Shown here: one piece after another, positions 10,238 to 10,720 of the stretch | Layout: each line of letters opens with the position of its first letter | Position numbering within the stretch: the first letter of the stretch is position 1 | IMG/VR virus record: IMGVR_UViG_2563366998_000006 | Reading direction: 5' to 3' (one strand) | DNA length: 41,043 nucleotides | From: a virus | Taxonomy: Duplodnaviria; Heunggongvirae; Uroviricota; Caudoviricetes | Notes under the pieces: generated by a model | The model's input: only the letters and a program-made list of their open reading frames with translations | Databases searched by the model: none | Told to the model about the DNA's origin: nothing | Program-made: the position numbers and the translations under genes

Positions 10238-10720
10238 ATGAGCCTTTTGAATGACGTTCAGAAATTCATTGAAGCCCATCCGGGGTGTACTTCCGGAGAC
10301 ATTGCGGATGCTTTTGCAGGTTACTCACGGCAGCGAGTTCTGCAGTCAGCAAGCAAGTTACGTCAGAGTGGGCGTGTGGCTCACCGTTGTGAAGAGGATA
10401 CACGCAGACATTTCCCGCGCCAGGCTGAGATATCGCAGGAGCCGGAACCAGTTTGTGAAACCAGACCTGTGCGCAATTTCTATGTCGGCACTAACGACCC
10501 CCGGGTGATTTTGTGCCTGACCCGCCAGGCTGAAGAACTGGAGTCCAGGGGCTTATTCCGTCGAGCTGCAACGGTGTGGATGGAGGCATTCCGTGAAAGC
10601 CACTCCCAGCCAGAACGAAACAATTTTCTGGCGCGTCGTGAGCGGTGCTTACGGAAAAGCAGCAAGCGCGCTGCATCGGGTGAAGAGTGGTATCTGTCAG
10701 GGAATTACGTGGGGGCTTAA
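10238..10720 (+). CDS. Putative transcriptional regulator with PerC/Pch-like C-terminal motif
   Basis: 160 aa from the ATG at 10238; C-terminal LTRQAEELESRGLFRRAATVWMEAF resembles the PerC-family signature as recalled. Confidence 0.5.
   Translation: MSLLNDVQKFIEAHPGCTSGDIADAFAGYSRQRVLQSASKLRQSGRVAHRCEEDTRRHFPRQAEISQEPEPVCETRPVRNFYVGTNDPRVILCLTRQAEELESRGLFRRAATVWMEAFRESHSQPERNNFLARRERCLRKSSKRAASGEEWYLSGNYVGA

What the first reader, a model, noticed from the sequence alone, without database searches (positions are those of the whole stretch)
10238..10720. PerC/Pch-like regulator encoded in the nin-like region
The C-terminal motif GLFRRAATVWMEAF resembles PerC-family proteins, which in pathogenic E. 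coli prophages activate host virulence regulons. A prophage-borne copy here could cross-regulate host genes. The N-terminal ~90 aa form an extra domain not typical of short PerC homologues.
Basis: partly seen in the sequence, partly recalled or inferred. Interest (0 to 1): 0.45.

Follow-up and report, generated by a model that had tools for sequence, protein, structure and literature searches.

The report
Prophage YfdN: winged-helix plus PerC regulator
The flagged gene is a real, intact copy of yfdN, a prophage gene already annotated in about half of complete E. coli genomes, in which a PerC-type three-helix regulatory module is fused to an N-terminal winged-helix domain; its function has not been tested experimentally, and the finding is correct but ordinary.

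Summary
An ORF at 10238-10720 (+) encodes 160 aa and contains GLFRRAATVWMEAF at residues 105-118. It scores above Pfam's gathering cut-off for PerC (36.2 vs 22.6 bits) and aligns to EPEC PerC at 37% identity.

It is 93% identical to E. coli K-12 YfdN (b2357, prophage CPS-53). RefSeq already annotates identical copies as "yfdN: PerC family transcriptional regulator", and 2674 of 5426 complete E. coli genomes carry a match.

The gene is co-transcribed in the early-right operon, directly after the replication initiator. I tested whether it is a lambda-P-like replication partner and rejected that: related phages omit it, and other family members sit in other contexts. It is an optional, hypervariable accessory gene.

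The most likely mechanism is inferred, not shown: a DNA-tethered PerC/ANR-type modulator of H-NS-type silencing or of another regulator. No experiment links YfdN to any host regulon.

The parts
10238..10720 (+). yfdN coding sequence (160 aa plus stop), a PerC-family two-domain protein
   Evidence: ORF. Pfam PerC 36.2 bits, above gathering 22.6. PHROG 1324 full length, E 1.3e-75. 93% identical to K-12 YfdN. 100% identical genes annotated yfdN in RefSeq.
10227..10232 (+). Shine-Dalgarno AGGGGG, 5 nt upstream of the ATG, lying inside the last codons of the initiator gene (translational coupling)
   Evidence: Read directly from the sequence. No plus-strand promoter-like or terminator-like site between about 8600 and 12650.
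10238..10435 (+). N-terminal winged-helix domain (residues 1-66): H3-13, H19-25, recognition helix H31-44, wing strands 47-52 and 55-60
10436..10498 (+). Acidic, variable, disordered linker (residues 67-87)
   Evidence: pLDDT 50-57. pI 4.4 and mean family identity 0.16. Length varies in alignment A2. dN/dS 0.46.
10499..10678 (+). PerC module (residues 88-147): three antiparallel helices (88-103, 107-120, 124-145), basic (pI 11.3), TPR/MIT-like
10550..10591 (+). Signature motif GLFRRAATVWMEAF (residues 105-118), spanning the turn and helix 2 of the PerC module
   Evidence: Translation. R109 and A110 invariant, W114 conserved in family alignments.
10679..10717 (+). C-terminal tail (residues 148-160) with the conserved (L)(S/A)GxYxG ending; modelled with low confidence
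   Evidence: G159 nearly invariant, and 'LAGxYxG' appears in the consensus of alignment A2. pLDDT 54-62.

Best explanation
Identity (close to certain): the ORF is an intact orthologue of E. coli YfdN, an accessory protein of SfII/SfV/mEp460/CPS-53-type lambdoid prophages. It is expressed as part of the early-right (pR) operon, directly after the replication initiator gene.

Architecture (shown): a basic N-terminal winged helix, then a roughly 20-residue acidic disordered linker, then a basic three-helix PerC module that belongs to the same sequence continuum as the ANR anti-regulators.

Mechanism (inferred, not shown): the winged helix binds DNA and so positions the PerC/ANR-type module at particular loci. 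There the module alters a nucleoprotein or regulator complex. The most plausible target is H-NS/StpA/Hha-type silencing complexes, as described for PchA at LEE1 and for ANR proteins, which bind H-NS and Ler directly. The result would be to switch target promoters of the phage or the host on or off when the prophage is induced.

The very high divergence of the protein inside an otherwise conserved operon would reflect different target specificities.

Steps shown here: gene identity, domain folds, family membership, operon position, purifying selection, optional and hypervariable character. Steps inferred: DNA binding, the partner of the PerC module, and any regulatory output.
For: Family and identity:
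- PF06069 above the gathering score. All 36 diverse two-domain relatives hit PerC.
- 37% identity to EPEC PerC and 93% to K-12 YfdN. RefSeq annotation as yfdN.

Folds:
- Confident winged-helix fold matching DNA-binding wHTH repressors.
- Conserved basic residues on the recognition helix and wing: position 40 is K/R in 28/36, position 49 is R/H in 32/36.
- The PerC module is a basic TPR/MIT-like three-helix unit.
- 31 of 47 family members cross-hit the ANR model.

Literature on relatives:
- PchA occupies AT-rich DNA in vivo and lowers H-NS/StpA occupancy at LEE1, although it has no recognisable DNA-binding domain (PMC4764244).
- ANR proteins are three-helix proteins with a conserved Cys and no DNA binding. 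They bind H-NS, Ler and AraC-type activators and change H-NS-DNA complexes (PMC4038620; PMC5570504; PMC10148876).

Selection and context:
- Both domains are under purifying selection (dN/dS 0.23 and 0.22).
- Co-transcription with early genes is likely.
- YfdN is 25-34% identical in operons whose flanking genes are 72-86% identical, as expected for a specificity determinant.
Against: - No DNA target, partner or phenotype is known for YfdN.
- The authors of PMC4764244 could not detect a PchA-H-NS or PchA-Ler interaction.
- Several PerC homologues have no effect on LEE1, and one represses it, so function is not transferable within the family.
- The three-helix fold is generic and also matches designed helical bundles.
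- The gene is dispensable in related phages.
Confidence: 0.5

Rival explanations
1. Pure protein-protein anti-regulator, ANR-like. Neither domain binds DNA. The PerC/ANR module sequesters a transcription factor or nucleoid protein (AraC-type activator, H-NS, StpA, Hha, or a phage regulator such as the neighbouring LexA-DNA-binding-domain protein). The winged helix is a second protein-interaction or oligomerisation surface.
For: - 31 of 47 family members hit the ANR model.
- ANR proteins act only through protein contacts.
- A PICI PerC-like protein represses LEE1, and its authors suggest ANR-like action.
- The PerC module resembles TPR/MIT peptide-binding units.
Against: - The window protein is below the curated ANR cut-off (22.9-24.1 vs 32 bits).
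- The recognition helix and wing are strongly basic, with conserved K/R positions.
- PchA does associate with DNA in vivo.
Confidence: 0.27
2. Replication-module partner occupying the lambda P slot. YfdN binds the conserved C-terminal tail of the HTH_36-type initiator (…VDYSQIPAGFRG) through its TPR-like module and helps recruit the host helicase.
For: - The gene directly follows the initiator, by translational coupling, in the window and in relatives down to 25% identity.
- These phages encode no P, DnaC or DnaB homologue.
- Two initiators that are only 31% identical share an identical 23-aa tail that travels with yfdN as one mosaic block.
- All 80 prophages with this initiator carry yfdN.
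Against: - Klebsiella phages P7641 and Kp4887-3 have tail-bearing initiators followed directly by the methylase, with no YfdN-like gene.
- Tail-bearing initiators in Kp4887-1 and Vibrio phage douglas are followed by DnaC-type (IstB_IS21) loaders instead, so the tail is not specific to YfdN.
- Family members also occur after RecT and in an integrase-AlpA island, away from any initiator.
- There is no similarity to P or AAA+ loaders.
- Part of the tail's conservation (…FRG) can be explained by the embedded Shine-Dalgarno sequence.
Confidence: 0.06
3. Activator of host virulence or adhesion regulons, in the way PerC/PchABC activate ler.
For: - Family membership.
- Pch proteins of prophages control LEE, curli and flagella.
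- YfdN-type genes occur in Stx2 phages.
Against: - The gene is equally common in commensal and K-12 strains that lack LEE.
- Only group-1 Pch proteins activate ler; PchD has no effect, and PICI homologues have none or repress.
- The gene sits in the lytic early operon with no promoter of its own detected, so it should be silent in a stable lysogen.
- There are no experimental data for YfdN.
Confidence: 0.12

Closest known systems
YfdN (b2357) of cryptic prophage CPS-53/KpLE1, E. coli K-12; PHROG 1324; SfV orf40, ST64B Sb43, mEp460 gp44
   Same: 93% identical over the full length. Same two-domain architecture. Same position after the initiator remnant yfdO. PHROG 1324 matches over the full length.
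   Different: The window copy lacks 2 residues in the linker, and the window has no methyltransferase (yfdM/dam) gene after it. This is the same gene in every respect that matters. It is curated as 'uncharacterized' in K-12.
PerC (EPEC pEAF plasmid, 89 aa) and PchA/B/C (EHEC prophages)
   Same: Homologous three-helix core: 37% identity over residues 96-141, invariant A98, L101, R109, A110, C137. Encoded on mobile elements.
   Different: PerC/Pch are single-domain proteins with no winged helix. They are encoded in the per operon or as prophage morons rather than in the early-right operon. Their ler-activating function is demonstrated; YfdN's is not.
ANR family (Aar, Rnr, Cnr; NCBIfam NF033650)
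   Same: Three alpha-helices with a conserved Cys in helix 3. Sequence cross-hits: window 22.9-24.1 bits, and 31 of 47 relatives at E up to 0.01 with best 6e-12.
   Different: ANR proteins are 39-80 aa, have no DNA-binding domain, and sit next to AraC-type activator genes. The window protein is below the curated cut-off of 32 bits. Their binding to AggR, H-NS and Ler is experimentally shown.
PerC-like proteins of Gram-negative PICIs (EcCIMP1_025, EcCICFT073, EcCIEDL933) and PchD/PchE
   Same: PerC-family members on phage-related elements whose effect is not LEE activation: repression, no effect, or curli/flagella control. One two-domain YfdN-like protein (P0183) lies in an integrase-AlpA island.
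   Different: Different genomic context. I did not determine the architecture of the published PICI proteins.
Lambda P / DnaC-type helicase loaders (positional analogue only)
   Same: Same slot immediately downstream of the replication initiator, translationally coupled.
   Different: No sequence or fold similarity. The gene is optional in related phages, and DnaC-type loaders occupy the slot elsewhere.

Membership tests
PerC family (Pfam PF06069) | Match to the family HMM at or above the curated gathering score | tested here: met
   36.2 bits against a cut-off of 22.6, E 7.6e-9, residues 96-147. All 36 diverse two-domain relatives also match at E up to 0.01.
PerC family (Pfam PF06069) | Conserved core A-x2-L-E-x2-G-[LF]-x-R-R-A-A-x2-W … R-x2-C shared with EPEC PerC | tested here: met
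   BLASTP against EPEC PerC gives 37% identity, E 5e-7. Invariant A, L, R, A and C columns in alignments A2 and A5.
PerC family (Pfam PF06069) | Small single-domain protein of about 85-105 aa | tested here: not met
   160 aa, with an additional N-terminal winged helix and a linker. EPEC PerC is 89 aa.
PerC family (Pfam PF06069) | Activates the LEE1/ler promoter (the function that named the family) | not testable with these tools
   No experiment on YfdN was found. The literature shows that only some members do this.
YfdN orthologous group (K-12 b2357 / PHROG 1324) | Full-length high identity to K-12 YfdN and a full-length PHROG 1324 match | tested here: met
   93% identity over 160 aa. PHROG 1324 E 1.3e-75, residues 1-159.
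YfdN orthologous group (K-12 b2357 / PHROG 1324) | Position directly downstream of the HTH_36-type replication initiator (yfdO) in the early-right operon | tested here: met
   Window gene order. K-12 order yfdO-yfdN-yfdM. 80 of 80 related prophage loci.
Winged-helix DNA-binding domains (MarR/BlaI/ArsR-like) | H1-b1-H2-H3-b2-b3 winged-helix fold | tested here: met
Winged-helix DNA-binding domains (MarR/BlaI/ArsR-like) | Membership of a specific wHTH sequence family (e.g. Pfam MarR_2) above the curated cut-off | tested here: not met
   MarR_2 scores 19.4 bits against a cut-off of 27. Only scattered weak hits across the family.
Winged-helix DNA-binding domains (MarR/BlaI/ArsR-like) | Actual DNA binding | not testable with these tools
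   Only indirect evidence: a basic recognition helix and wing with conserved K/R positions.
ANR family (NCBIfam NF033650) | Score at or above the curated cut-off (32 bits) | tested here: not met
   22.9 bits for the full protein and 24.1 bits for the C-terminal module. 31 of 47 relatives match at E up to 0.01, so the families overlap.
ANR family (NCBIfam NF033650) | Binds AraC-type activators and/or H-NS family proteins | not testable with these tools
   Known for Aar and Rnr. No multimer prediction or experiment was available here.
Phage helicase loaders (lambda P / DnaC-type), considered because of position | Sequence or fold similarity to P or AAA+ IstB/DnaC loaders | tested here: not met
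   No such Pfam, PHROG or structure hits.
Phage helicase loaders (lambda P / DnaC-type), considered because of position | Obligatory partner of the initiator in related phages | tested here: not met
   Absent from P7641 and Kp4887-3, whose initiators carry the same C-terminal tail. Family members occur away from initiators.

The most novel reading that the evidence does not exclude
YfdN-type proteins could be 'addressed' counter-silencers. In this reading a sequence-specific winged helix delivers a PerC/ANR three-helix module to chosen loci, where the module dismantles or remodels H-NS/StpA/Hha filaments by protein contact.

If so, the PerC, Pch and ANR families would be one superfamily of H-NS-complex modulators built on a TPR/MIT-like peptide-binding unit. 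The unsolved mechanism of PerC/Pch would then be protein-directed rather than DNA-directed. Half of all E. coli strains would carry a phage-borne, induction-coupled anti-silencing switch.
Probability: 0.18. Interest if true: 0.55.

Novelty: already known. Interest (0 to 1): 0.3.

Why it matters
As it stands, this is a correct re-discovery of an annotated gene.

It has some residual value because YfdN is one of the most widespread uncharacterised prophage genes in E. coli, with a match in 49% of complete genomes. It is under purifying selection in both domains.

Its architecture offers a handle on a long-open question: how PerC/Pch-type proteins work without a recognisable DNA-binding domain. 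YfdN has such a domain attached, and its PerC module connects by sequence to the ANR proteins, whose protein-binding mechanism is known.

If YfdN does remodel H-NS-type silencing on prophage induction, it would link the phage lytic programme to expression of silenced horizontally acquired genes.

Tried and rejected
1. Replication-partner (lambda P slot) hypothesis. I pursued this because of strict adjacency to the initiator down to 25% identity, and because a conserved initiator C-terminal tail travels with yfdN. I rejected it as the main explanation after negative controls. Tail-bearing initiators occur without YfdN, or with DnaC-type loaders. Family members also occur after RecT and in an integrase-AlpA island.

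2. In-silico docking using natural fusions of the initiator tail and YfdN. The longer homologues turned out to be frameshift artefacts that read the tail in the wrong frame, so they were unusable.

3. The search for related loci on genome contigs with the diverse alignment A2 failed, because no stretch was conserved enough. The viral-contig scan with the initiator alignment returned only ~99% identical E. coli prophages. That was useless for diversity, but I reused it for intactness and dN/dS.

4. Anti-phage defence role: no PADLOC hit.

5. Sequence search of the PDB found no hit, so no solved PerC-family structure is detectable by sequence.

6. Rfam and tRNA scans of the whole window found nothing.

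7. Own promoter or terminator for yfdN: none detected on the plus strand.

8. Literature on YfdN function. Only incidental mentions: an overexpression glycogen phenotype, an entry in a nitric-oxide transcriptome table, a filamentation-screen region, and a predicted interactome cluster. Porter et al. 2005 (PMC543544) was not available.

Full report
**Observation.** The window contains an ORF on the plus strand from ATG 10238 to TAA 10718-10720, encoding 160 aa. The cited motif GLFRRAATVWMEAF is residues 105-118 (nt 10550-10591). The ATG lies 2 nt after the stop (TGA 10233-10235) of the upstream gene. It is preceded at 5 nt by AGGGGG (10227-10232). The TAA overlaps the ATG (10720) of the next gene. 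RefSeq's PGAP calls the GTG at 10232 as the start, but that codon overlaps the Shine-Dalgarno sequence, and distant homologues all begin MS(L/I). No plus-strand promoter-like or terminator-like site occurs between about 8600 and 12650, so the gene is most likely co-transcribed with its neighbours.

**Identity.** Pfam gives PerC (PF06069) at 36.2 bits, above the gathering score of 22.6 (E 7.6e-9, residues 96-147). It also gives a sub-threshold MarR_2 hit at residues 10-57. PHROG 1324 ('transcriptional activator') matches the full length at E 1.3e-75. Megablast finds 100% identical genes in many E. coli chromosomes, annotated 'yfdN: PerC family transcriptional regulator', and 2674 of 5426 complete E. 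coli genomes have a match. The protein is 93% identical to K-12 YfdN (b2357, cryptic prophage CPS-53), where the order yfdO-yfdN-yfdM is the same and the curated name is 'uncharacterized protein YfdN'. The same gene occurs in phages SfII, SfIV, SfV (orf40), mEp460, ST64B (Sb43) and several Stx2 phages. A 2018 paper already calls yfdN 'the K12 unique PerC homologue', and deleted it only to obtain a clean background for testing PchA-E on ler::lacZ (PMC5931665). So the finding is correct and already known.

**Direct comparison with PerC.** EPEC perC was read from plasmid pMAR2 (89 aa). It aligns to YfdN residues 96-141 at 37% identity, E 5e-7. In alignments with short PerC-type proteins and with 35 diverse two-domain relatives, A98, L101, R109, A110 and C137 are invariant or nearly so.

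**Is it a functional gene?** In 80 prophage loci with a ~99% identical initiator, all carry the gene. 75 have an intact 159-162 aa ORF, 3 are truncated, and 2 run off the contig. Over 69 distinct alleles, Nei-Gojobori dN/dS is 0.27 overall. By region it is 0.23 for the winged helix, 0.22 for the PerC module and 0.46 for the linker. Both domains are under purifying selection.

**Context and the rival I pursued.** The order in the window is cI, cro, cII-like, DUF4222, HTH_36-type initiator (9294-10235), yfdN, a LexA-DNA-binding-domain-only protein, RusA, KilA-N, DUF968 and Q. There is no P, DnaC or DnaB homologue. Two-domain relatives at 25-46% identity sit in the same slot, overlapping the initiator's stop. 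The initiators of the window and of mEp460 are only 31% identical, yet their last 23 residues are identical, and DNA homology between these phages begins just there. All initiators paired with a YfdN-like gene end in …VD..(I/L)PxGFRG. This suggested a lambda O-P-like pair, with the TPR-like module binding the tail.

Negative controls removed most of that support:
- Klebsiella phages P7641 and Kp4887-3 have tail-bearing initiators followed directly by the methylase, with no YfdN-family ORF.
- Kp4887-1 and Vibrio phage douglas have tail-bearing initiators followed by IstB_IS21/DnaC-type loaders.
- One family member follows RecT, and another opens an operon in an integrase-AlpA island.
- Part of the tail (…FRG) also encodes the Shine-Dalgarno sequence of the next gene.

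**Hypervariability.** In fully syntenic operons the initiator's N-terminal half is 79-83% identical, RusA 79-81%, KilA-N 72% and DUF968 60-86%. YfdN is only 25-34% identical, and the LexA-like protein 45-50%. Together with purifying selection within an allele class, this pattern fits a specificity determinant with many allelic types. There are no hits to anti-phage defence models.

**Mechanism.** Shown: identity, folds, family relations, operon position, selection, and optional and hypervariable status. Inferred: a winged helix that binds DNA and, through a flexible acidic linker, positions a PerC/ANR-type three-helix module that acts on H-NS-type nucleoprotein complexes or on another regulator when the prophage is induced (confidence about 0.5). 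The main rival is a purely protein-binding ANR-like anti-regulator (about 0.27). The gene is as common in K-12 and commensal strains as in pathogens, lies in a lytic operon, and only some PerC homologues activate ler. The replication-partner idea remains at about 0.06.

**Verdict.** The gene is already annotated (yfdN) and experimentally uncharacterised. This analysis adds a domain-level description (winged helix plus TPR/MIT-like PerC/ANR module), evidence of selection, and the exclusion of a replication role.

Noticed in passing
window 9582-9704 (inside the initiator gene 9294-10235): Five to six direct repeats of a 15-nt unit (consensus TCTGACCCGTCAAAA) encode the low-complexity 'SDSDPSKSDASKSDPSKFDASKS' linker of the HTH_36-type initiator. 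By analogy with lambda ori inside gene O, these are probably the origin iterons.
   Followed up: partly
window 10160-10235; L005 4420-4498; L095, L097, L098 initiator 3' ends: HTH_36-type phage initiators that are otherwise only 25-31% identical share a C-terminal tail, …VD..(I/L/V)PxGFR(G/S/T). The tail occurs with YfdN, with DnaC-type loaders, or with neither. It may be a host-replisome recruitment peptide, and it partly overlaps the Shine-Dalgarno sequence of the next gene. The SfII/mEp460-type phages encode no helicase loader or helicase at all.
   Followed up: partly
window 10720-11046 (+): A 108-aa protein consists only of a LexA DNA-binding domain (PF01726, E 2.8e-19), without the S24 peptidase or dimerisation domain. 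It could be a non-cleavable LexA mimic. It is translationally coupled to yfdN, moderately variable (45-50% identity between syntenic phages), and absent from ST64B, F1055 and P7641.
   Followed up: partly
window 13612-16996 (- strand), between Q (13261-13632) and the lysis genes (~17495 onward): This stretch differs from the otherwise 97-100% identical reference prophage L001, which has a KAP NTPase here. It holds a 403-aa ORF with no Pfam or PADLOC hit, a 236-aa NA37/YejK-like nucleoid-associated protein fragment, and an IS5-type DDE transposase. It looks like a variable cargo spot downstream of Q.
   Followed up: partly
window ~4069-4073 versus L001 2218-5832: The reference prophage in strain M7424 carries a 3.6-kb cluster of IS3/IS30 fragments in the early-left region. 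The window lacks this cluster and looks like the uninterrupted version.
   Followed up: no
window 10720 junction versus SfII, mEp460, Stx2a_1447, K-12 (L005 4989-5642; L100 yfdM): Most relatives have a DNA adenine methyltransferase gene (about 650-1230 bp) between yfdN and the LexA-like gene. The window lacks it, so yfdN's stop directly overlaps the LexA-like start.
   Followed up: partly
L090 4001-4480 and L091 4001-4498: Two-domain YfdN-like proteins also occur outside the replication slot. One is the first gene after a 280-bp gap in an integrase / M78-HTH / AlpA element (PICI-like or Rac-like). The other lies between RecT and an acyltransferase.
   Followed up: partly
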